A DNA stretch of 64,000 nucleotides, from the sequence record PV357172.2, one strand, 5' to 3'. Shown piece by piece: positions 9,902 through 43,053 of this stretch. Numbering within the stretch: position 1 is the first letter of the stretch; each line of letters opens with the position of its first letter. Under the pieces are notes generated by a model. That model had not been told where the DNA came from, searched no databases, and was given only the letters and a program-made list of their open reading frames with translations. This stretch comes from a phage. Position numbers and translations under genes: made by a program.

Positions 9902-9910
9902 CCAAATTAT

Positions 9911-10191: not shown

Positions 10192-10200
10192 ACTTATTAT

Positions 10201-11819: not shown

Positions 11820-11827
11820 CCAAATTT

Positions 11828-11909: not shown

Positions 11910-11928
11910 CCAACTTATAGGGTAATGT

Positions 11929-12513
11929 ATGCAGTTTGTACCAATAAAAGATGCACCAGGGTATTTAGTAAATGAAACAGGGGATGTGTTATCTACATTT
12001 ACTAATAAAATCTTATCAAGATATATAGTTGATGGGTACCCTGCTGTAAAATTACAGATAAATGGTAAGCAAACTTCGGTACTTATACACCGAATTATTT
12101 CTCATGTATTTGGGGACTTATATAATCTATTTGACCCTGAATTAGAAGTAGATCACAAGGATAGAGATAGGCTGAATCTATCTAAAGATAATCTTCAAGT
12201 TTTATCAAAAATAGAACATCAGAAGAAAACTAATAAAGATAATGGATGGTCTGATAGTAGAGTACCTTGCCCCTTATGTGGAAATCTAATGCTTCAGAGA
12301 TCAGTAACATGTACAAATTGTAAGCCAAAACCTACAGGAAAGTTAATAAAACCAGAATTGTCCTTAGAAGACATAACTGAAAAGGTTTTATTAATGGGGT
12401 GGGTTAAGGCAGCTAAAGATCTAGAAGTATCAGAGTCCACTTTACGTAGACGATATACTAAACTAACCGGATTAAGCCCGAAAGTATTAACAGAACAACG
12501 GAAAAGCAAATAG
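11929..12513 (+). CDS. HNH homing endonuclease
   Basis: HRIISHVFG...LEVDHKDRDRLNLSKDNLQVL HNH motif plus CxxC pairs; 3' end overlaps tRNA-Ser. Confidence 0.8.
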   Translation: MQFVPIKDAPGYLVNETGDVLSTFTNKILSRYIVDGYPAVKLQINGKQTSVLIHRIISHVFGDLYNLFDPELEVDHKDRDRLNLSKDNLQVLSKIEHQKKTNKDNGWSDSRVPCPLCGNLMLQRSVTCTNCKPKPTGKLIKPELSLEDITEKVLLMGWVKAAKDLEVSESTLRRRYTKLTGLSPKVLTEQRKSK

Positions 12514-12590
12514 ACTGGTGACTAAACCCGATTGGAAATCGGTTGAGTGGTAGCAATACCGCCTTATGGGTTCAACTCCCATCTTTTCCG
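12500..12590 (+). tRNA. tRNA-Ser (GGA), long variable arm
   Basis: Perfect acceptor GGAAAAG/CTTTTCC, anticodon loop TTGGAAA, T-arm ATGGG-TTCAACT-CCCAT, CCA. Confidence 0.7.
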
Positions 12591-12605
12591 CCAAACAATT
12601 TATAT

Positions 12606-12697
12606 GGTAGGTCAATCCAATGGCTGGCGCTGGACTCCGACTTGAAATCGGTTGATCGTAGTGATACGGTGTAAGGGTTCGATCCCCTTACCTACCT
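12606..12697 (+). tRNA. tRNA-Ser (TGA), long variable arm
   Basis: Perfect acceptor GGTAGGT/ACCTACC, anticodon loop CTTGAAA, T-arm AAGGG-TTCGATC-CCCTT, CCA. Confidence 0.7.
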
Positions 12698-12712
12698 CCA
12701 AATCTTGAAGTA

Positions 12713-12837
12713 TGCCGGAATCGGTAGACGGGGCTGCCTAAAAGGTTTATAGGGAACATCCACTCCCTGCAACATACCTCATAAAGCGGCTGAGATAAAT
12801 GGTCTATCTCGTGAAGGTTCAAGTCCTTCTGCTTCTT
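12713..12837 (+). other. tRNA-like element (type-II D-arm and a T-arm, no canonical acceptor stem)
   Basis: GGAATCGGTAGACGG D-arm-like segment and GAAGG-TTCAAGT-CCTTC T-arm separated by about 80 nt. Confidence 0.2.
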
Positions 12838-13066
12838 GATACATCTATGGCTCAAAGTGTAACGGTGCTATTTGATGCTCTTGGTAAGACTTCCCCGACA
12901 TGCGTTCGGGAGTAAGCTGCTAAGACTAGAGTAGAAGAGTTTCTGAGAGCCGCCACAATTGAAAATTCGTACTCGTCTTGAGCTGCGTGCAATAGGAGAT
13001 AACTTGATTAGTATTCTAGAACATGCTAATTGAGGATGGTTTCGCTAACCCTGCGAGTTTTCAATT

Positions 13067-20028: not shown

Positions 20029-20699
20029 TGTCAGTATTAGTCGGTTTACATGGTGAAGCTGGTTCGGGAAAAGATACCGTTGCAAAATTAATTATCGATT
20101 GGTGTAATGACACGTATCCAACGTGTTTACCCCGTCGTTACAGTTTTGCTAAGCCCGTTTATGAACTTGCATCCGTAATCCTCGGTGTAACTCCAGAGTT
20201 TCTAGGAGAGCGCAGGGGAAAAGAGATTGATCAATGGTTTACGGTCACACAATCTCAATTGGAGCGAGCCAGAGATGTGTGGTTTAAGTACGGTATCGAT
20301 AAGTTTGAAGACTTCTCGTACGTTTGGCCTATTTTTGAGGAAAAATATCTTAATCCCCAACAACTTATCTCAGAGAGTAAAGAAGACGGACTTTATAGTT
20401 TATTTATTTCTCCGAGAAAAATGTTACAGCTCGTAGGAACAGAGCTAGGAAGGCAGCTGGTGCATGAACGCATTTGGCTCATAATTCTGGAGCAATCCAT
20501 CGCTAAAGACGACCCAGACGTCGCCGTAATAACAGATGTTAGATTCCCCAATGAAGGAAAGCTACTCAGAGAAACAAACCATTTAGATATGGATTCTTTG
20601 ATAGTAAATGTAGTACCGCTGAGCAGAAGTTTACTATTAAATCAGATCATCCATCTGAAAGTGGTATTCCTGCAAATATATTACTCACGAATTAGTTAA
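20028..20699 (+). CDS. P-loop kinase, dNMP kinase-like
   Basis: Walker A GLHGEAGSGKDT at the N-terminus. Confidence 0.5.
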   Translation: MSVLVGLHGEAGSGKDTVAKLIIDWCNDTYPTCLPRRYSFAKPVYELASVILGVTPEFLGERRGKEIDQWFTVTQSQLERARDVWFKYGIDKFEDFSYVWPIFEEKYLNPQQLISESKEDGLYSLFISPRKMLQLVGTELGRQLVHERIWLIILEQSIAKDDPDVAVITDVRFPNEGKLLRETNHLDMDSLIVNVVPLSRSLLLNQIIHLKVVFLQIYYSRIS

Positions 20700-30778: not shown

Positions 30779-31383
30779 TGACTTTATATGCACAACAACC
30801 TGTTCAAGTAGTACCAGACCATGAATTAAATACATGGGATTATGATTTTAAAGACTTAACTGCCACTGTACAGTTCAAATCTATGAAATTAACCTTTGCG
30901 CACACTGATATTAAAGCCTGTAAAGATCTTGAGCATAAATTAAAAGAAGCTCGTAAGATCTTTGGCAAGGCTCGGATTCCAGCTGATAACCTTATTAACG
31001 CATTAATAGATGCTGGTTATAAACTCGTAAAGACTGAGGTGAACCGCCCTAGTACTCCTGTGACTGTTGGAGGTTCCTGGACCAAAAGTGGTATCGCATT
31101 TAATCCTAAAATAACGTCGGATTTGCACAATGTTCCATGTGGTGGCGTTATAGAAAATAATTCCTCATATCGAGTTGGTGAAGATTACGGCCCTTCTGTA
31201 CAGTTGCAACATACTCAAGAAGCTTTTGAATCTGATATGCGAAGCGTAGCACCTGTGGATACTGAAGGTTTTAGAAGTCCCAGCTATGTTACTCACTTTA
31301 ATAATCTTAGGCCTGGGAGTATAAATGATACTATCCTTGAGGCGTTGGGAGCTGCTCTTAACGAAGATAAGAGAGGTAGTTAA
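30778..31383 (+). CDS. hypothetical protein (201 aa)
   Basis: Track ORF. Confidence 0.5.
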   Translation: MTLYAQQPVQVVPDHELNTWDYDFKDLTATVQFKSMKLTFAHTDIKACKDLEHKLKEARKIFGKARIPADNLINALIDAGYKLVKTEVNRPSTPVTVGGSWTKSGIAFNPKITSDLHNVPCGGVIENNSSYRVGEDYGPSVQLQHTQEAFESDMRSVAPVDTEGFRSPSYVTHFNNLRPGSINDTILEALGAALNEDKRGS

Positions 31384-31460
31384 TCCTCTAATACATGAGC
31401 CTCTACAGAGGCTCTAAAATAAAAAGAAGGTCGTCCAGACCTTAAAAACGGGAGATAATA

Positions 31461-32345
31461 ATGTATAACTTTAAAGATAAACTAAGACAAAATGCTGGTA
31501 AAACAAAACCTAAAGAGAACAATAATGTTCCTAATGCCAAAGTATTACCATTTCCAGAACTATCCCAAGAAGAAAAAGATAAGTTAGCATTTATGTTTGA
31601 TGCACTTATAGGGCTAAATGGACGTTTATATTCCTCTCTCAATATTAATGAGAAACGTTTAGTAGAGATGTTTTGTAAACGTTACCAAGTTACTTCAAAG
31701 GGCAATTCTTATAAAGAAGGTGAGAAAGCATTTACAGTCTTAAAGATTAGCGCATATGCACATCGTTTCTTAGTTTATGGGTTGCAAATGGAATACTTTA
31801 CTATCCCATCATTTAGCTCTTTCCATATCTTTGAAGATGAACGAATGAATATTGATGATCTCTACGGGGATACATACAAATACTCAGGAAGTCCATTCCA
31901 CGATGCATTAAGGAGTTACCCATCTAACTATTTACCCATTAGAGCATCTCAAGGTAAAGCTAGCATCTTTGCTGTATACTCAGGATCTAAAGCATCGGAT
32001 CTAGAAACTTATATATTTAAAGAGCGTAAATCTGTGCTTCCAGATGAAGCATTGTATAACAATCCATTGCTTCCAGAAAAAGAACCAGAAAAAATTGATG
32101 TAACCCCACCAATACCGTCTGACTCTCAGTATTTAATTTATGAGAAACAAGTTAAGTTATCCCTAGAAATTGGATTAGTTACACCGCTTGCTGCAGCATT
32201 CATAAATAGATATCTAGAAATTCCTGATGAGTTCCACACACGTTATAATACGAATATTCAGATAACGGATGAACTAATTGCGTTAGCAAAAGATACACCT
32301 ACAGATACTGAGGCGTATCAAAAAGCATACCAAGAGTTACTATAA
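31461..32345 (+). CDS. hypothetical protein (294 aa)
   Basis: Track ORF with GGGAG SD; followed by a hairpin at about 32355-32385. Confidence 0.55.
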   Translation: MYNFKDKLRQNAGKTKPKENNNVPNAKVLPFPELSQEEKDKLAFMFDALIGLNGRLYSSLNINEKRLVEMFCKRYQVTSKGNSYKEGEKAFTVLKISAYAHRFLVYGLQMEYFTIPSFSSFHIFEDERMNIDDLYGDTYKYSGSPFHDALRSYPSNYLPIRASQGKASIFAVYSGSKASDLETYIFKERKSVLPDEALYNNPLLPEKEPEKIDVTPPIPSDSQYLIYEKQVKLSLEIGLVTPLAAAFINRYLEIPDEFHTRYNTNIQITDELIALAKDTPTDTEAYQKAYQELL

Positions 32346-32792
32346 TACTCTGCATGTCTCGGTGCACAATACCTGTACCGAGACTCAAATACAAACTCTC
32401 GTTGACAGATAGCTAAATGTATGTTATCATAACTCTATGAGTTAATAGAATTAACCATTTAGAGTTGCCACACAGAAGGTGTGGTGGTTCAGTAATTTAA
32501 AATTACTAACTTGTAGCGGAGGATACGGAGCGACAGGACAAGTTAATAAGTAATTTAATATAAATTACTAGAAACATCACGAGACCTTCTGGCGGGGGGC
32601 AAAGCTCTATATGAGAACCCTGGGGGATCTTATATTTAAAATAAAAGTAAAACTTTTGACCACATAATTTACATTCAAGATGATACACCTGTTGCCGCTC
32701 ATCTGCTAGGATGGCACAACACTTTCTTCTAGACTCCTAAGTTTCTAGGAAATTGATAAGCACAAATTCTAGAGATCACACAAAAATATTCA

Positions 32793-33529
32793 TCGGATTT
32801 GCACATATTCTAGGGCAGTTTTCACTGTTCCTAGAAACTCCAGCAATAGGCGGTTAATACAGGGCGGTTATAGGGAGGGCGGTTATTTCTAGGAGACATT
32901 TTTTGAAAACACATTTCCAGAAATTACTGTCGGATTTGCACATTGTGTTTCTAGAAATTTATGGTCGGATTTGCACAAACGCCTAAGTTTTTAGGAACTC
33001 TTACTCTCCTGAAAATAGCAGCATTATTTCGGGCCGAAGGCCCATGATTGCCTGAGTTTTTAGAGCCACAAGAATTTTCACTTGTCAAGCTATTTTGCCC
33101 CATTTTGCTAATAAAATTTTACTTTTTCTGCACCTATCTCAAATTTCCCCAAATTATCTCAACTCTTCCCCAAAATCCCCGCAAATCAGGTGCTCCGCAC
33201 CAATCCTGCGCCTACTTCCTTCTAGTCCCAAAATTTCTCTCACTCTCTCATCCTCTCCTCAAACCTATACAATCACACACCCTCTCATCGAAGTCATAAA
33301 AATCTTGTCGGATTCGCACATCTCAACACATGTCGGATTTGCACATACTCTAGCTAATCCCACAGGATTCGAACGCAGTTCGTGATTGCTGGAGTTTTTG
33401 GGAAAATTCATTGTCGGATTTGCACACTATAAAAATTTTTCGGGTCGGATTTGCACACTACCAAAAATTGTCGGATTCGCACATACACGCCCACGCGTAA
33501 TCCATGGGGGCAAATGTCGGTTTTGCACA
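32793..33529. repeat. dispersed array of 10 copies of GTCGGATTTGCACA in non-coding DNA
   Basis: Copies near 32793, 32928, 32964, 33307, 33332, 33413, 33444, 33470, 33516 (two as GTCGGATTCGCACA, one GTCGGTTTTGCACA); irregular spacing. Confidence 0.8.
33100..33300 (+). repeat. about 200-nt pyrimidine-rich (C/T) tract with strand asymmetry
   Basis: Plus strand almost lacks G across this interval. Confidence 0.7.
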
Positions 33530-33559
33530 AAAGCGCAGGGCAATTGCCCTGCTCGCCTG

Positions 33560-33735
33560 AATGCGAATAAAAATAAGAATCATTCTCATTTAAAAAGTGG
33601 AATGCGAATGAGAATCATTATCATTTAGAAAACGGAATGAGAACTATTCAAGAAGTGAAATGATTCTCATTTAAAAAGTGGAGTGATTATCGATTAGCTA
33701 GTGAAATGCGAATGATAATGATTCGCATTTAAAAA
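33560..33735. repeat. tandem about 35-bp repeats with Fur-box-like palindromes
   Basis: Four to five units such as AATGCGAATGAGAATCATTATCATTTAGAAAACGG; GAGAATCATTATC matches 12 of 13 positions of the Fur consensus. Confidence 0.6.
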
Positions 33736-33762
33736 CGGAAGTGAGAAACACTGCTATTTAAG

Positions 33763-33872
33763 TTATCCACAGACTTATTAACAGCACGATTTGACTTGAC
33801 AGAATCCTAGCCATTTTGAGGCGTTATCCACAGACTTATCCCCAGGTTATTCTACTGTATAAATATACAGTA
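33763..33872. repeat. left arm of inverted repeat carrying DnaA boxes
   Basis: TTATCCACAGACTTAT twice (33763, 33824) followed by CTGTATAAATATACAG palindrome. Confidence 0.7.
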
Positions 33873-33987
33873 TTCCTATGCAGTGAATAATTCTAATATA
33901 GGCTTAAAACGTCCTGAGTGGTGGTACTAAAACAAAGGGGTATTTATCTGAAGGACTGAAAAACTGGGATCTGCTCCCCGCTTGTTA

Positions 33988-34182
33988 TCAGTCCGGTAAT
34001 TGATGCGTGATCTTCTCCTCCTCCCCGTAGGAATCCACCAAATGCTGATAATACCCATCGTTATCATAAATCACTTTATCATAATCGCCACGCTCGACCG
34101 CTTGCCGATTTTCCAGCGTATCAGGCACAAAGAAAGTATCAACGGTAACAGTAGTTTTAGTTACAACAATTTTATCACTCAT
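33988..34182 (-). CDS. hypothetical protein (64 aa)
   Basis: Minus-strand ORF in the IR-flanked cassette; Fur-like motif in its upstream region (34196-34216). Confidence 0.45.
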   Translation of the reverse strand: MSDKIVVTKTTVTVDTFFVPDTLENRQAVERGDYDKVIYDNDGYYQHLVDSYGEEEKITHQLPD

Positions 34183-34308
34183 AACGCCATCGCCCCTAGA
34201 ATGAGAATGATTATTATTACCATTACAAGCCCGTTACTAAATCGTAAACGCTGGGAATGTTTACCAGCGGTATTATTAGATTTATGGGATTGCGTTTTAC
34301 GCCACCAG

Positions 34309-34509
34309 CTATTCACGGTAGACACGCCAGCCGTCTAGCTTCCATTCTTCCCCCTTGCGAATATTGAAAAACCAATCATTAAAATTGTAACCATCTTCTG
34401 ACATGATCACGCCGTTTTCTTTCATGTACAAAAATTCATTGCTAGTAAAATATTGATTACTAACTTTAAAACCTTGTTTCATTTTTTCTAGTGCTTCATC
34501 TTTAGTCAT
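34309..34509 (-). CDS. small protein with DUF2829-like pattern (possible Tad2-like sponge)
   Basis: EALEKMKQGFKV...DW...EEW...GW pattern resembles DUF2829 proteins as I recall them; AGGTGG SD. Confidence 0.4.
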   Translation of the reverse strand: MTKDEALEKMKQGFKVSNQYFTSNEFLYMKENGVIMSEDGYNFNDWFFNIRKGEEWKLDGWRVYRE

Positions 34510-34850
34510 TGCGCCACCTTTCGAAACGCTGTTTCAATACTATCCGCAGTGGATTGAATATACGCGCCTTTCATTATCAGGCGCTCGGTACATACCTTGC
34601 GGAAAATATTAATAAAATCATCTTCGTTTTCTGCAATTAATGCTTCACCCATAACCTGAACGTCACAAGATGCAAAGGTCAAAAATTGAAACGCTAGTTC
34701 ACGGGCAACGACCGCATTAATTTTATAGTGCGCCTTGCCCTCATAAATATTAATAACGCCCTTATATTCAGGGGAAAGCTGATTTAAATAGTTTGCTAAT
34801 AATGCCGGACGGCAATTAGCAACAAAACGATTGCCCTCATAAATTACCAT
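34506..34850 (-). CDS. hypothetical protein (114 aa)
   Basis: ATG at 34850 with GGAG SD. Confidence 0.5.
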   Translation of the reverse strand: MVIYEGNRFVANCRPALLANYLNQLSPEYKGVINIYEGKAHYKINAVVARELAFQFLTFASCDVQVMGEALIAENEDDFINIFRKVCTERLIMKGAYIQSTADSIETAFRKVAQ

Positions 34851-34851
34851 T

Positions 34852-35064
34852 TTATAACACTCCACGAAAGGCCGCGTAAAAGGTGGCAAAATGTTTAACC
34901 GTCTCAGCGATCACGTTGCCCCGTTTATCGAATTTCTTTTCTGTAACACGAAAGGCGTTTTTGTTGCGTGCTACATATTCGATTTTACAATCTGGACGCT
35001 CGAACGTGTTAACGTCCACCAGCTTAAAGCCTTTCGAACGTGTAAGGGAAACGTTACGGATCAT
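34852..35064 (-). CDS. hypothetical basic protein (70 aa)
   Basis: AGGAG SD; translationally coupled. Confidence 0.5.
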   Translation of the reverse strand: MIRNVSLTRSKGFKLVDVNTFERPDCKIEYVARNKNAFRVTEKKFDKRGNVIAETVKHFATFYAAFRGVL

Positions 35065-35066
35065 TT

Positions 35067-35255
35067 TTATTCTCCTTTACTAGTCATGCAGCCCAGCAGA
35101 TAAGAAAAAACGGCGATACCCGCGCCAATAATAACCATTGGTTTTGTATTTACTAAACCACAATAGGAATCCTGAATACCATAAGCGGTGGCGAAAAGAG
35201 TCAGAATAGCGCCCAAGATACCTGCTAGAATAGCTCGAAAAATAACCATTTTCAT
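35067..35255 (-). CDS. small membrane protein (63 aa)
   Basis: ATG 35255 after TTTCTAGGAGAATGAAA; two hydrophobic helices. Confidence 0.45.
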   Translation of the reverse strand: MKMVIFRAILAGILGAILTLFATAYGIQDSYCGLVNTKPMVIIGAGIAVFSYLLGCMTSKGE

Positions 35256-35296
35256 TCTCCTAGAAATTAGAGGCGAAAGTAACGCCCAGTTATTGG

Positions 35297-35524
35297 TTAC
35301 ATTAAAACGATTTTGGCGGCTTGTTTTTTGGTGCAATGTTCCGCTTTCAATTCATCCAGCAAAAATCCAGCTGTTTGCTGATCAATCTTGTCATTATTGT
35401 AAAGCTCCTGAATGGTAACATAAGTTTTAGCAATCCCAAATTCAGAAACCATAACGCTTACAATAGCGGGAACGGATACCCATTCCATACCATTAAAAAT
35501 TGCAGAAGATGATGAATGTACCAT
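35297..35524 (-). CDS. hypothetical protein (75 aa)
   Basis: AGGAGG SD after TTTCTAGG motif; first gene of the minus-strand cassette. Confidence 0.5.
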   Translation of the reverse strand: MVHSSSSAIFNGMEWVSVPAIVSVMVSEFGIAKTYVTIQELYNNDKIDQQTAGFLLDELKAEHCTKKQAAKIVLM

Positions 35525-35646
35525 TTTAACGCCTCCTAGAAATCAGGGAAAATTTTCAATCCACCGTTTTGGTGTAAAGGCATTATAACAAAAAAGGCCA
35601 CCATAAAAGGCGACCTTTACAAAACTTTACATTAGGTTAATTATTA

Positions 35647-35760
35647 CTCGCTTTCGGTGCTAACGGTAAAAGTAGAAATATCAATACCTTTCACCATTTC
35701 CAGCATTGCCGCCACCTGGCCGCCGCGTTGGGTCTTTACTTTAATATTACCCCACAGCGT
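35647..35760 (-). pseudogene. 38-codon gene remnant (3' end only)
   Basis: Open frame between stops encoding ...TLWGNIKVKTQRGGQVAAMLEMVKGIDISTFTVSTESE with no start or RBS; a hairpin and T-run follow on the minus strand. Confidence 0.3.
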
Positions 35761-35825
35761 TTAGCTCGTTAGAAAGCGATTTAGGCCGCTTATTTTGGGC
35801 ATCATTATAGTATGCTTCCCATTTA

Positions 35826-35935
35826 CCCTGTATATTTATACAGTGGAATAACCTGTGGATAAGTCTGTGTAAAAGTGCTGTAAAGCCTTCCTATTGTGTC
35901 AATCAAATTTACAAAATGTATAAACCTGTGGATAA
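35826..35935. repeat. right arm of inverted repeat carrying DnaA boxes
   Basis: Reverse complement of the left arm: CTGTATATTTATACAG palindrome and TGTGGATAA twice (35854, 35927). Confidence 0.7.
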
Positions 35936-36126
35936 CTTAAATGATAGTGGTTCTCACTAACTAATTTATACAGTTATTATATAACAAAATATAGTTAGTT
36001 GGCTAATAGGATTTTAAAGTGATTATGAGTCTGCTAAGTAAACCTGAAAAACTCATTAGGTAGTCTGCTAATGATTTTGATATAATATAATAGAGATTAA
36101 ACTAATAACATAAGGAAACAATAACA

Positions 36127-36645
36127 ATGGGTCTATTTAAAGATATAGATTATTCGCTTGCTAATGATAACTTTTATTATGATGAAACATCCCCATCATT
36201 TCTAAGATGGAAAGTACAGAAAGGTAATAGTAAGGTGGGGGATATTGCAGGGCATTATAGTAACACAGGTTACTATCGAGTAAAGTTAGCAGGCGAACAA
36301 TACGCAGTGCATAGAATAATATGGGTATTATTTAATGGTGAGATTGATAGCAATCTAACAATCGATCATAATGATCGTAACCGTGCTAATAATAACATTA
36401 ATAATCTTCGCTTAGTAGATCATAAGCAGAATACGAATAACAAGAAAGATTATAAGCGTGCTAATAAGTTGCCTAAGCATATCTATTATAATGGTTCTAG
36501 AGTTGATAATAACGGAAGAAACTATTTGCGCGCTATAGTTAAAGATCCTACTAGTAACAAAAGTGTTAGTAAATCAGGTTATGATTTACAAGAGTTATTA
36601 TTATGGGTAGAAACTAAAAAAGCTGAATTTGGGATTGTCAATTAA
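36127..36645 (+). CDS. HNH homing endonuclease
   Basis: HRIIWVLFNGEIDSNLTIDHNDRN...NNLRLVDHKQN HNH motif. Confidence 0.8.
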   Translation: MGLFKDIDYSLANDNFYYDETSPSFLRWKVQKGNSKVGDIAGHYSNTGYYRVKLAGEQYAVHRIIWVLFNGEIDSNLTIDHNDRNRANNNINNLRLVDHKQNTNNKKDYKRANKLPKHIYYNGSRVDNNGRNYLRAIVKDPTSNKSVSKSGYDLQELLLWVETKKAEFGIVN

Positions 36646-37033
36646 TTTATTTTATAAATTAACGCAATGCCACTTGATTTTAAAAAGTCAATACCTTTTC
36701 CAACTATTTTTCAATTTTGCTTTTGTTAAATATTTGTTAAATCGAAAATGGGCCGCCTAAAACGCCCTAGAAAGCGGTAAAATTTTCAGGTATGCCATTG
36801 CATTGCCTACCCTCGTTTATCGCTACCACGAGCTTTCTAGATTTTGTCAATATCCCCAAAGCAAATATAAATGAAAAAATTACTTGCCTATCTGCTTGGT
36901 TTTATGGTATTCACGCGCCCGTTCCTTTTAATTTAGGTGAGCGCCGCACGCCGTCCGGTGAAACTGTATTAGCCATATTGCTAATAATTTTGGTATAATA
37001 TAATAACCAAATGAAACTAATAGGAGAATATTA

Positions 37034-37375
37034 ATGATTGAGCTAACAAAAGATATTGATTTAGAAACTGTGCTAGATAATCTTTACTATGATGAAACTA
37101 GTCCCAGTTGCCTACGGTGGAAAGTATCCCGCCCCGGTTGCGCCCTTCATGGGGTAGCAGGTACTAAAAGAAAGGATGGTTACTGGTCTGTACAGCTCAA
37201 TAAAGAGCGTTACCTAGCGCATCGTATCGTGTGGTTATTATTTAATTATAAAATAGATAGCAAACTAGTAATTGATCATATTGATCGTAACCCTAGTAAT
37301 AATTTTATTGATAACTTACGGTTAGTAACTCAAGCCGAAAACAACCAAAATAAGGGAGGCTATAGAAAGGCGTAA
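37034..37375 (+). CDS. HNH homing endonuclease (short paralog)
   Basis: HRIVWLLFNYKIDSKLVIDHIDRN...DNLRLVTQAEN; upstream leader similar to that of 36127. Confidence 0.75.
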   Translation: MIELTKDIDLETVLDNLYYDETSPSCLRWKVSRPGCALHGVAGTKRKDGYWSVQLNKERYLAHRIVWLLFNYKIDSKLVIDHIDRNPSNNFIDNLRLVTQAENNQNKGGYRKA

Positions 37376-37616
37376 AACTTACGTTTCTTTACAAAAATAA
37401 GGTTGCGCCCTTTTCGGGAATCTCCTATTATTTATCACGTAGGGCGGCAATGACGAACTACACGGCGGGAAGTTTACCGCCGCGCTCTTTAAAAATTGGG
37501 TACATCTTAAAGCCTATCGGCGGTAAACTTATTCATTATAAGGAATCGACGATATGAAACAAACTTTATTGATCACTGGCAAGCCTAGCAAGGCACTAGA
37601 TAGCAAAACAAAAAAT

Positions 37617-37650
37617 TTGTTGACAGTAGCGCAAAATTCTGTAAAATGGC
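37617..37650 (+). promoter_or_regulatory. near-consensus sigma70 promoter (TTGACA, about 17 bp, TAAAAT)
   Basis: Lies inside track ORF 37554-37757, which I regard as non-coding; a second TTGACA-type promoter sits at about 37745-37775. Confidence 0.5.
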
Positions 37651-37986
37651 GATTCAAGCAATATTTGCAAGGTCGCCAGCAAGGTTTAGAAATGATCTGG
37701 CGAAACATTATGATTGACCTGAAGGAAAATCATAAAAAATCTCAAAAAATTGTTTGACAGCCTAGCCGATAGGTTTTAAGATGTACCCAGTTCGAAAAGA
37801 GCGATAACTTGATAAAATTTGACGGTCGGCACTTACCATAATGTGCCCCGCCCCCTAACGGGATATAGCGGCCTACGTGGAGTTCTTTAAATTGATTATA
37901 TTGGCGAGCGGATTGTTACTTATTACCTGCTGTTACTTTCTAGCAGGTAATGCGGAACAATCCCCAAATAACTAGGAGTTTATATT

Positions 37987-38238
37987 ATGAAAAACGTTAT
38001 TACCGCGCCTAAAATTGGTCAATCCGTTTTCATCCCTTTCGTTACTAAAACGGATGAATTAACCGGAAAAGCCGAGCGCATCAAAGGCGCAGCGCTTATG
38101 CCATTTGATACAATCGACGCGGTATACGCTGAAACGGAACGAAGTAACAACGGAAAAACTATTTACAGCGTTCGGGTTAAATCCGGCGACGTTGTAAAGG
38201 TTGTTCAACGCAACGAAAAATGGGAAGCTGTATTGTAA
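37987..38238 (+). CDS. hypothetical pre-early-region protein (83 aa)
   Basis: AGGAG SD; followed by hairpin ATCCCCC...GGGGGAT. Confidence 0.5.
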   Translation: MKNVITAPKIGQSVFIPFVTKTDELTGKAERIKGAALMPFDTIDAVYAETERSNNGKTIYSVRVKSGDVVKVVQRNEKWEAVL

Positions 38239-38336
38239 TTTAGTGTTAACTTTATATCCCCCAGTAGTTCGGGGGATATAACGATTAACATTATGTTAAT
38301 CTAATCCCTTAAATTAAACTAATAGGAGTTTTTACC

Positions 38337-38744
38337 ATGACTAACGCAAAAACCGCAAAATTCGCATGGAATGAAGAAAACACTCAGAAAGCTGTTACCA
38401 TGTACCAGCAGTTAATCAACGAAAACGGTTTAGATTTTGCAAATAGCGACGGCCTGAAAGAGATTGCAAAAGCAGTAGGCGCGGCTTCTCCTGTGTCTGT
38501 TCGCTCAAAATTGACCAGTGCAAAAGCCTATCAAAAAAGCGATAAGCCGCGTAAAGTTGGCGGCGGTAGTTCAATCCGTAAAGCGCATTATGTGCGAGTA
38601 ATTGCAAAACACGCTATCGATTCCGGCATTATCAAAGACGCCGATGATCTGGCAAGCCTTGAAAGTGCTAAACTGGAAACGCTGGACGCAGTAGCGCAAC
38701 TGTTAGGCGTTGCCGATGAAGTAAAACAGGCCGCAGGTGAATAA
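38337..38744 (+). CDS. hypothetical pre-early-region protein (135 aa)
   Basis: AGGAG SD; followed by hairpin GCCCCCT...AGGGGGC. Confidence 0.5.
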   Translation: MTNAKTAKFAWNEENTQKAVTMYQQLINENGLDFANSDGLKEIAKAVGAASPVSVRSKLTSAKAYQKSDKPRKVGGGSSIRKAHYVRVIAKHAIDSGIIKDADDLASLESAKLETLDAVAQLLGVADEVKQAAGE

Positions 38745-38832
38745 TTATATACCTTGCCCCCTTTAGTGAGGGGGCAATAATATAACTGTTTAGCGATAGT
38801 TGTTATCTTCCCTTAAATCAGGAGTTTTAAAA

Positions 38833-39030
38833 ATGATTTTCTTTCCTACTGAGTCATTAATTTTAGGCTTGTTTATTATGGCGGCCTCGTTATTGTTCGC
38901 TTATTTTCAAAATGATTTAGATTCATATTATTTTAAACGTAAATCTAAATTAGCAAAACGTTTAGGTCTGCTTTGTTTTATCGCTGCCGTTGCTTGTGGT
39001 GTTAGTTCTAGCCTAGTGCCTTTAAATTAA
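38833..39030 (+). CDS. small membrane protein
   Basis: ATG 38833 after AGGAG; hydrophobic. Confidence 0.45.
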   Translation: MIFFPTESLILGLFIMAASLLFAYFQNDLDSYYFKRKSKLAKRLGLLCFIAAVACGVSSSLVPLN

Positions 39031-39120
39031 TGTTGCAAATTATAACGCCTATTGTTCGAGGCGTTATATTTGGCAATATTGCCGTTATTAACCTAATCCC
39101 TTTAATGGAGCTTTATTACT

Positions 39121-40791
39121 ATGATTATTTCCGCAGAAAAACAAACCGTTATCCTGAAAATGGCCGCTGACTTTAATTTCTATGGTAAACGTCTGCGCGC
39201 TACTAAACTGGAGGTCTGCGACGATATATCAAAAGCAGTCTACGATACAACGAAACATTCCACCGCCATTTGTGATTGGCTGGAAGCAAACAAACCAGCG
39301 AAACCAAAAGCGGCAAAAGTAGCAAAAGCCATTAAAAACGATGAGCGCCCCGAAGCGGCGGGGATTGTTTCTAGCACGGTTGAACAGTGGGAAGTAAAAC
39401 AGGGTAAACGCTTTATTATTACGTCGATTCAGAATAATACTTTCCCGCATAAAAACTTTTTAGCCTCGCTTGAACAATTTGCTAAATATATCGGCGCTGA
39501 TTTGCTTGTTTCTAAGTATATTTATAATAAAAACGGTTTTCAAAATGGCGAGGGCGCGGATGGAATAAAGTATGATTCCGCGTTCGATAAATATATTTGC
39601 AGCAAAAACGTGTTTTTACATAACCGCCGTTTTGCTTTCATGGCTGAAATTAATGTTTTGCCAACCGCAGATTATCCGCTTTCTGGATTCGCAGAAACTG
39701 CTACCGCGCTCAATATTGAAGGGCTGGCAATTGGTCACGCTAAAATTACCGCCGAAAGCGTGCCAGCTTTAAAAGGTGAAGTAGTGCGCCGTATGTATTC
39801 AACCGGAACGGCAACGCTCAAAAACTACATTCAGCAGAAAGCAGGACAAAAGGCCGAGGCGCTGCATAACTTCGGTGCGCTTATTGTTGAGTTCGATGAT
39901 GATGGGGAATTTTTTGTTCGCCAGCTTGAAACAATGGACGAAAGCGGGGTGTTTTATGATCTGAATGTTTGCGCTACTCCTGCCGGATGCTATGAAACAT
40001 CGGGGCATGTTTTAGGCTTGCAGTATGGCGATATTCACGCCGAAAAATTAGATGAGGAGTGCGCCGCCGCATCTTGGGGGCATGGTGATACCTATGGGCT
40101 AGTAGATATTCTTAAACCAAAATATCAGTTTGTGCATGACGTGCATGATTTTACATCGCGCAATCATCATAACCGCGCATCCGGTGTATTCCTAGCGAAA
40201 CAGTATGCCGCCGGACGTGATAAAGTTCTGGATGATCTTATCGATACCGGTCGCGTGCTGGAATCAATGGAACGTGATTTTAGTCAAACAATCATTGTTG
40301 AATCGAATCACGATTTGGCGCTATCCCGTTGGCTTGATGATCGTAATGCTAACATTAAGGACGATCCCGCCAACGCCGAACTATATCACCGCCTGAATGC
40401 TGCGATTTACGGAGCTATTGCAGAAAAAGACGACACCTTCAACGTGCTAGATTATGCGCTGCGCAAGGTTGCAGGTTGTGAATTTAACGCCATTTTCCTA
40501 ACGACTGACCAATCTTTCAAGATTGCAGGTATTGAATGCGGCGTACACGGTCACAATGGCATTAACGGGAGCCGTGGCAATCCGAAACAATTTAAGAAAT
40601 TGGGCAAATTAAACACCGGACACACTCATACCGCCAGCATTTACGGCGGCGTTTATACCGCTGGCGTGGCTGGTAGTCTGGATATGGGTTACAACGTTGG
40701 CGCGTCAAGCTGGACACAAACGCATTTAATTACCTATGCAAACGGTCAACGCACTTTGATTGACTTTAAAAACGGTAAATTCTTTGCGTAA
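39121..40791 (+). CDS. A1: A1-like pre-early protein, Mre11/SbcD-type metallophosphatase nuclease (556 aa)
   Basis: Metallophosphatase motifs GDIHA, ESNHD, GHNG and GHTHT; length equals T5 A1 as I recall it. Confidence 0.65.
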   Translation: MIISAEKQTVILKMAADFNFYGKRLRATKLEVCDDISKAVYDTTKHSTAICDWLEANKPAKPKAAKVAKAIKNDERPEAAGIVSSTVEQWEVKQGKRFIITSIQNNTFPHKNFLASLEQFAKYIGADLLVSKYIYNKNGFQNGEGADGIKYDSAFDKYICSKNVFLHNRRFAFMAEINVLPTADYPLSGFAETATALNIEGLAIGHAKITAESVPALKGEVVRRMYSTGTATLKNYIQQKAGQKAEALHNFGALIVEFDDDGEFFVRQLETMDESGVFYDLNVCATPAGCYETSGHVLGLQYGDIHAEKLDEECAAASWGHGDTYGLVDILKPKYQFVHDVHDFTSRNHHNRASGVFLAKQYAAGRDKVLDDLIDTGRVLESMERDFSQTIIVESNHDLALSRWLDDRNANIKDDPANAELYHRLNAAIYGAIAEKDDTFNVLDYALRKVAGCEFNAIFLTTDQSFKIAGIECGVHGHNGINGSRGNPKQFKKLGKLNTGHTHTASIYGGVYTAGVAGSLDMGYNVGASSWTQTHLITYANGQRTLIDFKNGKFFA

Positions 40792-40847
40792 TTAAATTAT
40801 TCCCCTAGCGGCTTGAAATATAGCCGCTATTATAGGAGCTAAATTAA

Positions 40848-41105
40848 ATGAAAGTTACATTACCCAAAACATTGGACGAAAAAGTATTTATTTCACCGGA
40901 TGAAATGGAATCTGATAAAGTTTACAGCTTCGGGCCTATCCTAGCCGCCAAAACTAATACGGATGGTATTATTTCCGTCGATTCCCGTGATAACGATATT
41001 GTTCCTTTTGATGATGATGGCGCTTTTTATGAGTGGCTAAGCGATAATAATTTACCCGTAAACGGTGAATTAACGCCATACCAGATGCAGATTATTATCA
41101 AATAA
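40848..41105 (+). CDS. hypothetical protein (85 aa)
   Basis: Track ORF with AGGAG SD. Confidence 0.5.
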   Translation: MKVTLPKTLDEKVFISPDEMESDKVYSFGPILAAKTNTDGIISVDSRDNDIVPFDDDGAFYEWLSDNNLPVNGELTPYQMQIIIK

Positions 41106-41143
41106 ATTAAATCCATTATTAAACTAATTGGAGTTTTATAAAT

Positions 41144-41536
41144 ATGAAAAAGCAAAATATTCCCTTCGATCGCGCTCAGTCCTCAATTGTTCTGGTTTAT
41201 TCCAACGGCGAACGTTACCACGTCGAGGCTGGACACGTTATTGATGACCTATTAGATTTCAATGACGCTTTGCAGGTTACTACCTTTGCATATACGCAGG
41301 GCAAACTAACCAGCCATATTAAAGCAAAAGGCGTTTATGTTGACACGGTGAAACAAGAAACGATTATCATCGACGCCGTAAAATCCGGCCTAGCCTTTGC
41401 AGTTGTCGCGCCTTGCCTCGCTTGCCTTGATGATCAATTGATTAGTGCAAAGGTCTACACATGTGCGGGGATTCGTTCTAGCGTATCCGGTGAGGATGTT
41501 AGTTTTATCGCTGATGCGTTGGCTTATGGTCTTTAA
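41144..41536 (+). CDS. A2 candidate (130 aa)
   Basis: Size and position next to the A1-like gene only. Confidence 0.35.
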   Translation: MKKQNIPFDRAQSSIVLVYSNGERYHVEAGHVIDDLLDFNDALQVTTFAYTQGKLTSHIKAKGVYVDTVKQETIIIDAVKSGLAFAVVAPCLACLDDQLISAKVYTCAGIRSSVSGEDVSFIADALAYGL

Positions 41537-41616
41537 TAGTTGATTTATTATTGCCCGCTTATAAATAGCGGGTAATGCTGAATTAATCTAATCCCTTAAA
41601 TGGAGAACGTAACAAA

Positions 41617-42351
41617 ATGAATCAAGTTAAAACGAATATTACCCGTAATTTCCCGCATATTTCCCGCGTCATGATTTGGGATCTTGATGGCACTATCGTT
41701 AATTCATTCCATCGTGTCGCGCCTTGCTTTGATAGCGACGGGAATTTAAATTTAAATAAGTATAAAAATGAGGCTTGCAAACATGATTTAATAATGCAAG
41801 ATACTTTATTGCCTTTGGTGGAATATATGCGCCAATGCATGAATGACGCAAATACTTTAAACATTATTTGCACCGCTCGACTGATGAGCAAATCAGACTA
41901 TTATTATTTGCGTAAACAAGGATTGCGCGGGCGTGGTGATAGTAATATCCGTGTATTTTCCCGCGATACACTGCATAAATATTTTGAGGCTGATAAGGTT
42001 AGCGAAATATACCACAGCAAAGACGCAGTTTATAAATCGTATTATTTTGAGCTATTCAAACAACTATATCCGAACGCTGATTTTACAATGATTGATGATC
42101 ATAAAGGTGTATTATCAGCGGCAGCGTCATACGGATTTAAAACGCTGGACGCGCAAGCCGTTAATGATATTCTATCAATCGGCGTGGCATTGATAGGCGG
42201 AACCTTTATTGATGAATCTCTCGATGATGATAATGATTATCAGTTCCTAGCGGACCGATTGAAATTATGTTGGGAAAGTATGACCGAGGAAGAACGCGCA
42301 GAATATAGTTGCAGCCCGCAACAATATATTGAGAAATTAAAAGTTGCGTAA
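41617..42351 (+). CDS. dmp: HAD-superfamily phosphatase, Dmp-like 5'-deoxyribonucleotidase (244 aa)
   Basis: HAD motif I DLDGT and motif IV IDDH; same length as T5 Dmp as I recall it. Confidence 0.6.
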   Translation: MNQVKTNITRNFPHISRVMIWDLDGTIVNSFHRVAPCFDSDGNLNLNKYKNEACKHDLIMQDTLLPLVEYMRQCMNDANTLNIICTARLMSKSDYYYLRKQGLRGRGDSNIRVFSRDTLHKYFEADKVSEIYHSKDAVYKSYYFELFKQLYPNADFTMIDDHKGVLSAAASYGFKTLDAQAVNDILSIGVALIGGTFIDESLDDDNDYQFLADRLKLCWESMTEEERAEYSCSPQQYIEKLKVA

Positions 42352-42513
42352 TAATTAAAGTTGAAATAGTCACGGTGTGTAATGATAACATGCCGTGACT
42401 ATTAGCTTGCTAAGTACCGGGCGGTAATGAGACTCATTCTCATCTGGGGGGCCACTGCACCCACCCACGCGTACGTAATCCAAAGAATTTGGCAAAAGTC
42501 ATTTTAGTGCTAA

Positions 42514-43053
42514 TTAACTGTTTAATTGGGCAACGTCTGGTATACTTCCTTTGAACATCTCCTGTATTGCAAAGTCACCATGAAATGTCCTTCTTAGTAA
42601 ATTTGCATAATTTACGGCATCTTCTAATCCGCTATAGGGAAAGTACTTAGTAGTACCCCTTATCAGCCCCTGTTTATCATGTAATCTTACCATCCACTTC
42701 TGAAGTTCTTTATGCCATGTAACATTTAGATAGCCTGATGATGCTCTTGAGATTCTGCCATTATGATTATTCTCTGTAATTGAAGCCTCTCTTAAATTTG
42801 ACCATCTATTATTTAGTTTATTCCTATCTATGTGGTCTACACATTCCTCTGGCCATCTATTCTCCATAATAACAAAAGCTACTTGATGTGCATAAGCTTT
42901 AAACCCTCGATACTTAAGCTGCCTATATCCCCTATTTAAAGTACCTGCTTCTTTACCCTTACGATTGCCTCTTTTCCAGGTAAAAACTCCGGTTTCGGGA
43001 TCATAAGCAAATACTTCTTGTATTTCCTGTATGTTTAAATTATTCTTCATCAC
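42514..43053 (-). CDS. HNH homing endonuclease
   Basis: HQVAFVIMENRWPEECVDHIDRNKLNNRWSNLRE HNH motif. Confidence 0.75.
   Translation of the reverse strand: MMKNNLNIQEIQEVFAYDPETGVFTWKRGNRKGKEAGTLNRGYRQLKYRGFKAYAHQVAFVIMENRWPEECVDHIDRNKLNNRWSNLREASITENNHNGRISRASSGYLNVTWHKELQKWMVRLHDKQGLIRGTTKYFPYSGLEDAVNYANLLRRTFHGDFAIQEMFKGSIPDVAQLNS

What the first reader, a model, noticed from the sequence alone, without database searches (positions are those of the whole stretch)
33487..42480. Short direct repeat bracketing the pre-early genes
CCCACGCGTAATCCA followed by a G-run (33487-33511) recurs as CACCCACCCACGCGTACGTAATCCA next to a G-run (42441-42480), about 9 kb apart, and a Fur-like motif lies next to each copy. 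Such paired sites could mark recombination or nicking sites, or boundaries of the first-step-transfer DNA.
Basis: seen in the sequence. Interest (0 to 1): 0.4.

Follow-up and report, generated by a model that had tools for sequence, protein, structure and literature searches.

The report
Nick-site box and terminal-repeat junction
A short motif seen twice around the first-injected genes of a T5-like phage is really there, but it is not a working pair: one copy lies in the recognition region of the phage's well-known DNA nick beside the injection-stop signal, the other is the first stretch of DNA outside the genome's terminal repeat, and most related phages lack the exact match.

Summary
CCCACGCGTAATCCA lies at 33490-33504 and CCCACGCGTA[CGTA]ATCCA at 42464-42482, each near a G-run and a Fur-box-like palindrome.

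The window is a T5-like phage, reversed relative to T5, with its terminal repeat (TR) collapsed to one copy at 33063-42460.

Copy 1 is the spacer between two DRD repeats of the T5 injection-stop region. It lies 36 nt upstream of the homologue of T5's 7.9% major nick (A^GCGCAGG, 33532^33533). All four annotated T5 major nicks carry a similar YGTAAY box 34-36 nt upstream, so copy 1 is probably the second half of a bipartite nick site.

Copy 2 starts 3 nt outside the TR outer boundary. It opens a roughly 55-nt junction element that is conserved as far as Serratia phage Slocum, where the boundary was called by PhageTerm.

The exact 10+5-nt match is at chance level (36 such pairs in the window, about 26 expected). 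It is present in only 2 of 17 phages compared.

Whether both hold the same protein-binding box remains open (about 0.3).

The parts
33490..33504 (+). Copy 1, CCCACGCGTAATCCA. It is the spacer between two DRD repeats and holds the upstream box (GTAA at 33497-33500) of the 7.9% nick site.
   Evidence: Identical in T5 at AY543070 9791-9777 and AY587007 about 9696-9710, between 'direct repeat D' copies 1 and 2. GTAA is invariant in all 14 spacer variants from relatives.
33532..33539 (+). Nick core A^GCGCAGG, with the cut predicted between 33532 and 33533. Homologue of T5's major single-chain interruption at 7.9% (and 99.5%). It is followed by the palindrome GCAGGGCAATTGCCCTGC.
   Evidence: T5 annotation places the nick at 9748/9749 on the complement strand and AY587007 annotates 'major single-stranded nick 1, 7.9%'. 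Matches the consensus R/GCGCRGG (PMC3517423). No physical nick has been shown for this phage.
33470..33529 (+). The two DRD repeats (GTCGGATTCGCACA at 33470-33483 and GTCGGTTTTGCACA at 33516-33529) that flank copy 1. They belong to a 10-copy, same-strand array at 31116-33529.
   Evidence: 11 matches against 0.25 expected. Annotated as 'direct repeat D' in T5 AY587007.
42464..42482 (+). Copy 2, CCCACGCGTACGTAATCCA. It equals copy 1 plus a tandem CGTA duplication.
42461..42520 (+). Terminal-repeat junction element ('allele A'): CCACCCACGCGTACGTAATCCAAAGAATTTGGCAAAAGTCATTTTAGTGCTAATTAAC. It is the first unique DNA outside the repeat. Relatives have AGCGC where the window has AGTGC (42506-42510).
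   Evidence: Records of JLBYU43 and GEC_vB_N3/N7 end at window 42460/61 or 42461/62. Slocum's PhageTerm-called boundary lies directly 5' of CCACCCTCACGTACGTAATACAAAGAA...AGCGCTAATAAAC. Alignment and table of 17 phages.
33063..42460 (.). Terminal repeat (9,398 bp), present once in the window because the assembly is collapsed. It is reversed relative to T5 and carries the pre-early genes (dmp, A1, A2 and others) and the injection-stop region.
   Evidence: Window 32000-42370 matches T5 11281-105 on the minus strand. T5 TR is 1-10219, with inner boundary |GAGCCACAG. The phiR201 record ends at GAGCCACAAG. Slocum's boundary is |GCCACACC.
42514..43053 (-). HNH homing-endonuclease gene directly outside the junction element.
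   Evidence: ORF. Pfam HNH_3 PF13392, E = 7.6e-12. Present or absent among relatives. In SHSML-45 and HildyBeyeler it is flanked by junction allele A (TR side) and allele B (far side).
33572..34218 (.). Cluster of Fur-box-like 19-nt palindromes (33572-33590, 33607-33625, 33711-33729, 34200-34218) just beyond the nick. These correspond to T5's DRC repeats and palindromes E-I.
   Evidence: Conserved offsets from the nick in 15 phages. 33607-33621 is identical over 15 nt to the iucA aerobactin Fur operator. T5 annotation.
42426..42444 (.). Fur-like palindrome AATGAGACTCATTCTCATC, 16 nt inside the genome terminus. A perfect 7-1-7 Fur box, TGATAATGATTATCA, lies at 42228-42242 inside dmp.
   Evidence: The terminus-proximal copy is in 6 of 15 phages; the dmp copy is in 15 of 15.
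20167..20216 (+). Homologue of T5's 18.5% nick: box TTGCATCCGTAATCC, then 35 nt from GTAA to A^GCGCAGG (20209^20210). It lies inside dnk.
   Evidence: Box and core are conserved in the distant phage Slocum.
5110..5160 (+). Homologue of T5's 32.6% nick: box TATCCGCATGTAATCT, then 35 nt from GTAA to A^GCGCAGG (5153^5154). It is intergenic.

Best explanation
The two copies are two separate features of a T5-like genome that happen to share 10+5 nt in this lineage. They do not act together.

(1) Copy 1 is the upstream half of a bipartite nick site.
- T5-like virions carry site-specific single-strand interruptions on one strand, at R^GCGCRGG.
- Here, every site homologous to a T5 major nick also has a box (YRY-GTAA-YMY; at this site CCCACGCGTAATCC) 34-37 nt upstream on the same strand. 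That is about 3.5 helical turns.
- I infer that the nicking activity reads box and core together. This would explain why core matches without a box, and those on the other strand, are not among the known nicks.
- Copy 1 is that box for the 7.9% nick (33532^33533), set between two DRD repeats of the injection-stop region.

(2) Copy 2 is the opening of a conserved junction element of about 55 nt. It begins at the first unique base outside the terminal repeat (42461), directly next to where the left genome end is cut. It is most likely part of the cis signal used in end formation or packaging. In Tequintavirus relatives this version of the element ('allele A') usually sits next to an HNH homing-endonuclease gene.

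Shown: positions, conservation, spacing, coincidence with annotated T5 nicks, and coincidence with record or PhageTerm boundaries.
Inferred: that the box is read by the nicking system, that the junction element is a terminase signal, and that the exact identity of the two copies is coincidental.
For: Mapping.
- The window is reversed T5-like DNA.
- Copy 1 is identical in T5 and lies between DRD copies 1 and 2, next to the annotated 7.9% nick and inside the annotated injection-stop signal.

Box.
- All four unique annotated T5 nicks have YGTAAY 34-36 nt upstream: CACGCGTAAT, CATCCGTAAT, CACATGTAAT and CACGCGTAAC.
- In the window, GTAAY-N27-31-RGCGC hits the + strand exactly 3 times. These are the three nick homologues. 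The expectation is 0.74 per strand.
- The other three full core matches (62170 +, 33205 -, 35119 -) have no box.
- A box matrix trained only on the other three nick sites ranks copy 1 14th of 127,966 window positions. The commonest 7.9% variant scores above every window position.
- GTAA is invariant in a spacer that otherwise varies.
- The distant Serratia phage Slocum keeps a box 37 nt upstream at its 7.9% site and GCATCCGTAAT at its 18.5% site. That stretch is the only blastn-detectable part of its dnk gene.

Junction.
- Records of JLBYU43 and GEC_vB_N3/N7 end at 42460/61-42461/62.
- Slocum's PhageTerm boundary lies directly 5' of the same element, although its neighbouring gene is unrelated.
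- phiR201 has the element twice in tandem.

Not a pair.
- The match is at chance level.
- A 10-nt shared word occurs in 2 of 17 phages and 4-6 nt in 13 of 17.
- In IMG/VR only SHSML-45 has both motifs.
- A profile of the junction element does not find copy 1.
Against: The similarity may not be pure coincidence.
- CGTAATCC occurs only three times in the window: two nick boxes and copy 2, all on the nicked strand.
- CCCRCRCGTA occurs only at the two copies, against 0.13 expected, although the pattern was defined post hoc.
- phiR201 shows an independent 9-nt match between its nick box and its junction.
- Every junction variant has YGTAAT, and 13 of 17 phages have AGCGC 31-34 nt downstream.

Other limits.
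- The role of the box in nicking is inferred from only four sites plus homologues.
- The enrichment of conserved synonymous sites in Slocum's dnk is weak (8/11 against 8/20, p = 0.085).
- No physical nick or end data exist for this phage.
- I could not read the older T5 nick papers or Wang et al. 2005, so the box may already be described there.
Confidence: 0.55

Rival explanations
1. Shared-box hypothesis. Both copies are instances of one protein-recognition box (about CCCRCRCGTA..AYMC, minimal form YGTAAY). The junction element would then be a fifth, weaker nick-type site: box, then 31-34 nt, then A^GCGC. It would sit right outside the terminal repeat and link the enigmatic nicking system to the genome end.
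For: - The junction box fits YRYGTAAYMY in allele A (TACGTAATCC), allele B (TGTGTAATCT) and Slocum (TACGTAATAC).
- AGCGC lies 31-34 nt 3' of GTAA in 13 of 17 phages, on the nicked strand. The spacing holds even where the spacer sequence is replaced. The chance of RGCGC in such a spacing range is about 0.005 (my estimate from base composition).
- Allele A resembles the 7.9% and 64.8% boxes (CACGCGTAA). Allele B resembles the 32.6% box (GCATGTAATCT). Each differs by a short tandem duplication.
- CGTAATCC and CCCRCRCGTA are confined to nick boxes and copy 2.
Against: - A box matrix trained on the 18.5, 32.6 and 64.8% sites ranks the junction poorly: 5179th for allele A and 1724th for allele B.
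- An nhmmer profile of the nick sites gives E = 8-12 at the junction.
- The junction core lacks RGG. In allele B it overlaps the last codons of the T5.162 homologue. In this window and three relatives it is AGTGC.
- The spacing is 1-5 nt shorter than at true nicks.
- Neither annotated T5 record marks a nick there.
- All these patterns were noticed post hoc.
Confidence: 0.3
2. Pure coincidence at both ends. Neither copy has a sequence-specific role. Copy 1 would be a drifting spacer and copy 2 a drifting intergenic stretch.
For: The match is at chance level in this genome. The copy-1 spacer is the most variable part of its neighbourhood.
Against: - GTAA at fixed spacing is invariant in all spacer variants and recurs at all four T5 nicks and in Slocum.
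- The junction element is conserved from Escherichia phages to Yersinia and Serratia phages, exactly at the repeat boundary.
Confidence: 0.1
3. The two copies would be partner sites for recombination or cleavage that excises or circularises the first-step-transfer segment, or the two cut sites that define the terminal repeat.
For: The copies bracket the pre-early genes. One lies at the terminus and the other within about 100 nt of the estimated first-step-transfer end. [quoted passage not shown]
Against: - The pair is not conserved: 2 of 17 phages, and absent in T5 itself.
- Copy 2 lies outside the repeat, so it is absent from the left end of virion DNA.
- Copy 1 is 427 nt from the inner boundary, whose sequence (GAGCCACA) differs.
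- No recombinase gene is adjacent.
Confidence: 0.05

Closest known systems
T5 major single-chain interruptions (nicks at 7.9, 18.5, 32.6, 64.8 and 99.5%; consensus 5'-R/GCGCRGG, GenBank AY543070 and AY587007; PMC3517423)
   Same: The core, the strand and the homologous position at 33532/33533, 20209/10 and 5153/4. Copy 1 is identical in T5.
   Different: The published consensus that I could access is the 7-8-nt core only. PMC3517423 states that additional sequences must be involved. The upstream YGTAAY box at -34 to -37 is my addition and has not been tested by experiment. Copy 2 has no GCGC core in this window.
T5 injection-stop signal, 'Repeat Region 3' (Heusterspreute 1987; Wang 2005; Davison, bioRxiv 10.1101/866236)
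   Same: Copy 1, the DRD repeats, the DRC repeats with palindromes E-J, and the DnaA boxes occur here in the same order as in T5.
   Different: Copy 1 corresponds to an unannotated spacer between DRD copies 1 and 2. Davison's paper does not discuss it, the nick, or any resemblance to Fur boxes.
Boundaries of long direct terminal repeats in T5-like and T7-like phages (termini called by PhageTerm)
   Same: Copy 2 abuts the outer repeat boundary, as defined by record ends and by PhageTerm in Slocum.
   Different: The motif is not found at the other boundary. No terminase recognition site has been defined for T5 in the literature I could read.
Nick sites of phiKMV-like phages and Pseudomonas phage tf (long consensus sites on one strand)
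   Same: Strand-specific nicks at sequence-defined sites. Those consensus sequences are 9-20 nt, which suggests that T5's short core is likewise only part of the site.
   Different: The sequences are unrelated, and those sites are contiguous rather than bipartite.
Fur operators of E. coli (19-bp GATAATGATAATCATTATC; 7-1-7 TGATAATNATTATCA; the iucA operator)
   Same: The palindromes beside both copies match at 13-15 of 15 positions. 33607-33621 is identical over 15 nt to the iucA operator.
   Different: They are not in a promoter of an iron-regulated gene, and Fur binding is untested. They could equally bind a phage protein such as A2.
HNH homing-endonuclease cassettes of T5-like phages
   Same: An HNH_3 gene shows presence/absence polymorphism, with duplicated flanking sequence in two relatives.
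   Different: The insertion point is exactly the terminal-repeat boundary. The flanking 'allele A' element also exists without the HNH gene in phiR201, Slocum, mar004NP2 and PMBT29.

Membership tests
T5-type site-specific nick site | Core 5'-R^GCGCRGG on the nicked strand (T5 complement strand, window + strand) | tested here: met
   For copy 1's site: AGCGCAGG at 33532-33539 on the + strand. For copy 2 the feature is not met in this window: TTTTAGTGCTAAT, with no GCGC.
T5-type site-specific nick site | Homologous position to an experimentally mapped T5 nick | tested here: met
   Copy 1's site aligns with the T5 nick at 9748/9749 in AY543070 and with 'major single-stranded nick 1, 7.9%' in AY587007. 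Neither T5 record annotates a nick at the junction.
T5-type site-specific nick site | A physical 3'-OH/5'-P interruption in virion DNA | not testable with these tools
   No read or end data are available for this phage.
Terminal-repeat boundary / terminase cut site of a direct-terminal-repeat phage | Coincides with genome termini determined for relatives | tested here: met
   Copy 2 starts 3 nt outside the boundary. JLBYU43 and GEC_vB_N3/N7 records end there. Slocum's PhageTerm repeat boundary is at the same place. Copy 1 is 427 nt from the inner boundary, so it does not meet the feature.
Terminal-repeat boundary / terminase cut site of a direct-terminal-repeat phage | The same recognition sequence at both repeat boundaries | tested here: not met
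   The inner boundary reads tttta|GAGCCACAAG (33062|33063). The outer boundary reads CCACTGCAC|CCACCCACGCG. The motif is absent at the inner boundary.
Paired recombination sites or target-site duplication flanking a mobile or excisable segment | Repeats conserved as a pair at the ends of a segment that is present or absent among relatives, with a recombinase nearby | tested here: not met
   The pair is present in 2 of 17 phages. The bracketed segment is the universal terminal repeat. The only nuclease gene nearby is an HNH homing endonuclease outside the pair.
Fur box | Match to the 19-bp or 7-1-7 consensus | tested here: met
   Five matches with at most 3 mismatches to the 19-mer, against 0 expected. 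Perfect TGATAATGATTATCA at 42228-42242. Family consensus TGA[G/T]AAT[C/G]ATT[C/A]TCA from 87 copies.
Fur box | Fur binding, or iron-dependent regulation of an adjacent promoter | not testable with these tools
   No binding data. The sites lie in an untranslated repeat region, not in a known iron-regulated promoter.
Homing-endonuclease cassette | An HNH-family nuclease gene with presence/absence polymorphism at one locus | tested here: met
   HNH_3, E = 7.6e-12. Present in the window, SHSML-45, HildyBeyeler, NR01, PNJ1902, ECOP18, JLBYU43 and VAH1. Absent in T5, K15, S131, SUT_E1520 and mar004NP2.

The most novel reading that the evidence does not exclude
T5-type nick sites are bipartite: an upstream box (about YRY-GTAA-YMY, here CCCACGCGTAATCC) lies 3.5 helical turns 5' of R^GCGCRGG. 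A variant of the same box plus an AGCGC palindrome forms the conserved element that abuts the genome terminus. The long-unexplained nicks and genome-end formation would then use a common recognition module, and nick sites would in effect be partial copies of the packaging or terminus signal.
Probability: 0.25. Interest if true: 0.6.

Novelty: new member of a known kind. Interest (0 to 1): 0.33.

Why it matters
As a direct repeat the finding is ordinary and should not be treated as a recombination or boundary pair. What lies under each copy is more useful.

- **Nick sites.** T5's site-specific nicks have been known since the 1960s, but their function and full recognition site are not established. 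PMC3517423 notes that the 7-nt core also occurs on the un-nicked strand. A conserved box at fixed spacing gives a concrete determinant that can be mutated.
- **Genome terminus.** The junction element gives a candidate cis signal for formation of T5's 10-kb terminal repeat. I found no defined site for this in the literature I could read.
- **Injection stop.** The Fur-box-like palindromes clustered exactly where first-step transfer stops offer a testable host-factor candidate, alongside Davison's DnaA-box proposal.

Tried and rejected
- **nhmmer profile of the junction element against the window.** Built from 15 relatives, it did not find copy 1 at E <= 100.
- **nhmmer profile of the nick sites.** It found the junction only at E = 8-12.
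- **Position matrix from three nick sites.** It validated copy 1 but not copy 2. Motifs this short, with an indel, cannot reach significance this way, so these negatives are weak.
- **IMG/VR scans.**
  - CCCACGCGTAATCCA gave 22 stretches. Only T5 and SHSML-45 are T5-like and the rest are chance.
  - CGTACGTAATNCAAAGAA added only one unrelated metagenome contig, L140.
- **'Copy 2 is merely cargo of the HNH cassette.'** I first held this view. I dropped it as the full explanation once Slocum and phiR201 showed the element without that gene.
- **DENT-seq/NickSeq papers.** I wrongly recalled that they mapped T5 nicks; they do not mention T5.
- **Papers not held.** The 1977 J Virol papers on T5 nicks and termini and Davison 2015 are not in the library. 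Wang et al. 2005 could only be consulted through its GenBank annotation.
- **Fur and T5 literature.** Searches linking them returned nothing relevant.
- **Synonymous-site test in dnk.** The result is suggestive only (p = 0.085).
- **Shared cut motif at the two repeat boundaries.** I looked for one. A GTGG lies just inside each cut, but I judged this too weak to claim.


Full report
**What is in the sequence**

Copy 1, CCCACGCGTAATCCA, lies at 33490-33504 and is followed by TGGGGG. Copy 2, CCCACGCGTACGTAATCCA, lies at 42464-42482 and is preceded, 12 nt upstream, by GGGGGG. The match is 10 exact nt plus 5 exact nt around a 4-nt tandem CGTA duplication. The G-runs are on opposite sides of the motif.

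Fur-box-like 19-nt palindromes do lie beside both copies: 33572-33590 and others near copy 1, and 42426-42444 near copy 2. In 64 kb this palindrome family occurs only inside the 9.4-kb terminal repeat: 5 sites against 0.03 expected.

**Chance**

Taken alone, the repeat is unremarkable.
- The window has 5210 pairs of exact 10-mers.
- It has 36 pairs of the same class (10-mer, 1-4-nt indel, 5-mer) against 26.2 +/- 4.7 in Markov simulations.
- The best local alignment of the two 101-nt neighbourhoods is reached by 4.3-4.6% of random segment pairs under two scoring schemes.
- The motif is unusually G+C-rich for this genome. By my own composition estimate, about 0.2 such G+C-rich pairs are expected per window. 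That is still not significant.

**Context**

The window is a T5-like phage. Window 32000-42370 aligns to T5 (AY543070) 11281-105 on the minus strand at about 91% identity. T5's annotation gives:
- the left terminal repeat (TR) at 1-10219;
- the injection-stop signal at 9140-10149;
- a major single-chain interruption at 9748/9749 on the complement strand.

In the window the TR is present once, as in a collapsed assembly. Its inner boundary is 33062|33063. This rests on T5's |GAGCCACAG, on the phiR201 record ending at GAGCCACAAG, and on Slocum's |GCCACACC.

Its outer boundary is 42460|42461.
- The JLBYU43 record ends with the reverse complement of CCACCCACGCGTACG....
- The GEC_vB_N3 and N7 records end one base further on.
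- T5's terminus aligns within 1 nt.

**Copy 1**

Copy 1 is identical in T5. In Wang et al.'s annotation (AY587007) it is the unannotated spacer between 'direct repeat D' copies 1 and 2, next to 'major single-stranded nick 1, 7.9%'.

Among 26 distinct homologous sequences, the flanking DRD repeats and the nick core AAAA^GCGCAGGGCAATTGCCCTG are nearly invariant, while the spacer varies. Its forms are CCCACGCGTAATCCATGGGGG, CCCGCACGTAACACCCGTGGAG (the commonest), CCAGCACGTAACCCTTGGAG and CCCGCGCGTAAYCCATGGTGG. GTAA never changes.

**A box upstream of every nick**

The published core consensus is R/GCGCRGG. PMC3517423 notes that it also occurs on the un-nicked strand, so 'additional sequences should be involved'.

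The window has four + strand core matches. The three that map to T5's 7.9, 18.5 and 32.6% nicks all have a related box 35-36 nt upstream:
- cCCACGCGTAATCC
- tGCATCCGTAATCC
- tCCGCATGTAATCT

T5's own four annotated nicks show the same arrangement, including the 64.8% nick (gTCACGCGTAACAC, 34 nt upstream).

Further support:
- The pattern GTAAY-N27-31-RGCGC hits the window's + strand exactly three times, at these sites, against 0.74 expected per strand. The other core matches (62170 +, 33205 - and 35119 -) lack a box.
- A matrix built only from the 18.5, 32.6 and 64.8% boxes ranks copy 1 14th of 127,966 window positions. It ranks the commonest 7.9% variant above every window position.
- In Serratia phage Slocum, the 7.9% site keeps DRD-ccatGTAACAt-DRD-A^GCGCAGG, with the box 37 nt upstream.
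- The 87 nt around the 18.5% site is the only part of Slocum's dnk gene that blastn detects. GCATCCGTAAT, GGTGTAACT and GGGAGAGCGCAG are conserved there.
- Four-fold degenerate sites in Slocum's dnk are identical to the window at 8 of 11 positions in the nick region, against 8 of 20 elsewhere (p = 0.085).

I conclude that copy 1 is the upstream half of a bipartite nick site. That the nicking system reads the box is an inference.

**Copy 2**

Two versions of the first unique DNA outside the TR exist:
- 'Allele A': CCACCCACGCGTACGTAATCCAAAGAATTTGGCAAAAGTCATTTTAG[C/T]GCTAAT. It is found in the window and nine relatives.
- 'Allele B': CACCTCCATGTGTAATCTTATGAAATTTGGCAAAAGTCAAATTAGCGCATAG. It is found in T5, Kenya-K15, S131, SUT_E1520, EC142 and others.

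In Tequintavirus relatives, allele A usually sits next to an HNH gene. In the window this is ORF 42514-43053 on the minus strand (HNH_3, E = 7.6e-12). In SHSML-45 and HildyBeyeler the HNH gene is flanked by allele A on the TR side and allele B on the far side. The gene, together with an allele-A element, was therefore inserted exactly at the TR boundary.

Allele A is nevertheless old and is not only HNH cargo.
- Yersinia phage phiR201 has it twice in tandem without the HNH gene.
- Slocum's repeat is annotated as 'predicted by PhageTerm', and it reads ...gggagc|CCACCCTCACGTACGTAATACAAAGAA...GATAGCGCTAATAAAC. The boundary is at the same place, next to an unrelated gene.

Copy 2 is thus the opening of a conserved junction element of about 55 nt at the genome terminus. 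The most economical reading is a cis signal for end formation or packaging, which is an inference.

**Are the two copies related?**

As an exact repeat, no.
- The longest word shared by the nick box and the junction box is 10 nt only in the window and SHSML-45. It is 9 nt in phiR201, 8 nt in mar004NP2 and 4-6 nt in the other 13 phages.
- T5 has copy 1 but junction allele B.
- In IMG/VR only SHSML-45 has both motifs.
- Profile searches do not link the two sites.

Several things keep a shared-box reading alive.
- CGTAATCC occurs three times in the window: two nick boxes and copy 2.
- CCCRCRCGTA occurs only at the two copies (the pattern was defined post hoc).
- Every junction variant contains YGTAAT.
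- 13 of 17 phages have AGCGC, often inside a TAGCGCTA palindrome, 31-34 nt downstream on the nicked strand. The window itself has AGTGC.

I give this rival about 0.3. It is not the leading explanation because:
- the junction core lacks RGG;
- the spacing is shorter than at true nicks;
- in allele B the GCGC lies within codons;
- neither T5 record annotates a nick there;
- the resemblances were found after the fact.

**Verdict**

The copies are not a conserved or functional pair.
- The underlying features are this phage's versions of known T5 landmarks.
- The upstream nick box, the terminus junction element and the resemblance of the stop-signal palindromes to Fur boxes are details I did not find in the accessible literature. 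Key older papers could not be read.

Noticed in passing
window 33572-33590, 33607-33625, 33711-33729, 34200-34218, 42228-42242, 42426-42444: Palindromes of consensus TGA[G/T]AAT[C/G]ATT[C/A]TCA, which is the Fur 7-1-7 box with G/T and C/A alternatives. They sit at conserved offsets (+29 to +669) from the 7.9% nick in all 15 phages checked, exactly where first-step transfer is estimated to stop. 33607-33621 is identical over 15 nt to the iucA aerobactin Fur operator. A perfect TGATAATGATTATCA inside dmp is present in 15 of 15 phages. They correspond to T5's 'direct repeat C' copies and palindromes E-I. No paper in the library links T5 with Fur.
   Followed up: partly
window 42461-43053; L035 (SHSML-45) 12337-12990; L037 (HildyBeyeler) 11762-12420; L141 (phiR201) 9960-10090: The HNH homing-endonuclease gene is inserted exactly at the terminal-repeat boundary, a natural double-strand cut site. 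In two relatives it is flanked by diverged duplicates of the junction element. mar004NP2 and PMBT29 look like HNH-loss recombinants (allele A left half, allele B right half). phiR201 has two tandem junction copies.
   Followed up: partly
window 33063-33072 and 42452-42466; L139 (Slocum) inner boundary; L141 position 1: Both repeat boundaries lie next to a CCAC/GTGG word. The inner boundary reads |GAGCCACA (|GCCACACC in Slocum). The outer boundary reads GCCACTGCAC|CCACCC (gggagc|CCACCC in Slocum). In T5 the outer word is inverted (GGCAGTGGACA|CACC). This may hint at the terminase cut preference, but it is too weak to claim.
   Followed up: partly
window 62170-62177 (+), 33205-33212 (-), 35119-35126 (-): Three further exact matches to the nick core R-GCGC-RGG have no upstream GTAAY box. 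If the box matters, these sites should not be nicked.
   Followed up: partly
window 31116-33529: Ten same-strand copies of GTCGGATTTGCACA (T5's 'direct repeat D') straddle the inner repeat boundary. The last copy directly abuts the nick core (GTCGGTTTTGCACAAAA^GCGC). Their function is unknown.
   Followed up: no
window 33740-33778 and 35920-35958: A 39-nt inverted repeat pair (85% complementary, 2.1 kb apart) carries DnaA boxes (TTATCCACA / TGTGGATAA). It corresponds to Davison's IRD'/IRC' and IRC/IRD elements.
   Followed up: no
window 20136-20216; L134 (Slocum dnk) 201-287: Within the dNMP kinase gene, the only stretch with blastn-detectable similarity to Serratia phage Slocum is the 87 nt that spans the 18.5% nick box and core. 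This suggests nucleotide-level constraint on top of the coding constraint.
   Followed up: partly
window 33533-33551 and 5154-5200: Nick cores are followed at once by palindromes or hairpins: GCAGGGCAATTGCCCTGC at the 7.9% site and GGGCTTTT...AAAAGCCC at the 32.6% site. T5 annotates the latter as a bidirectional terminator.
   Followed up: no
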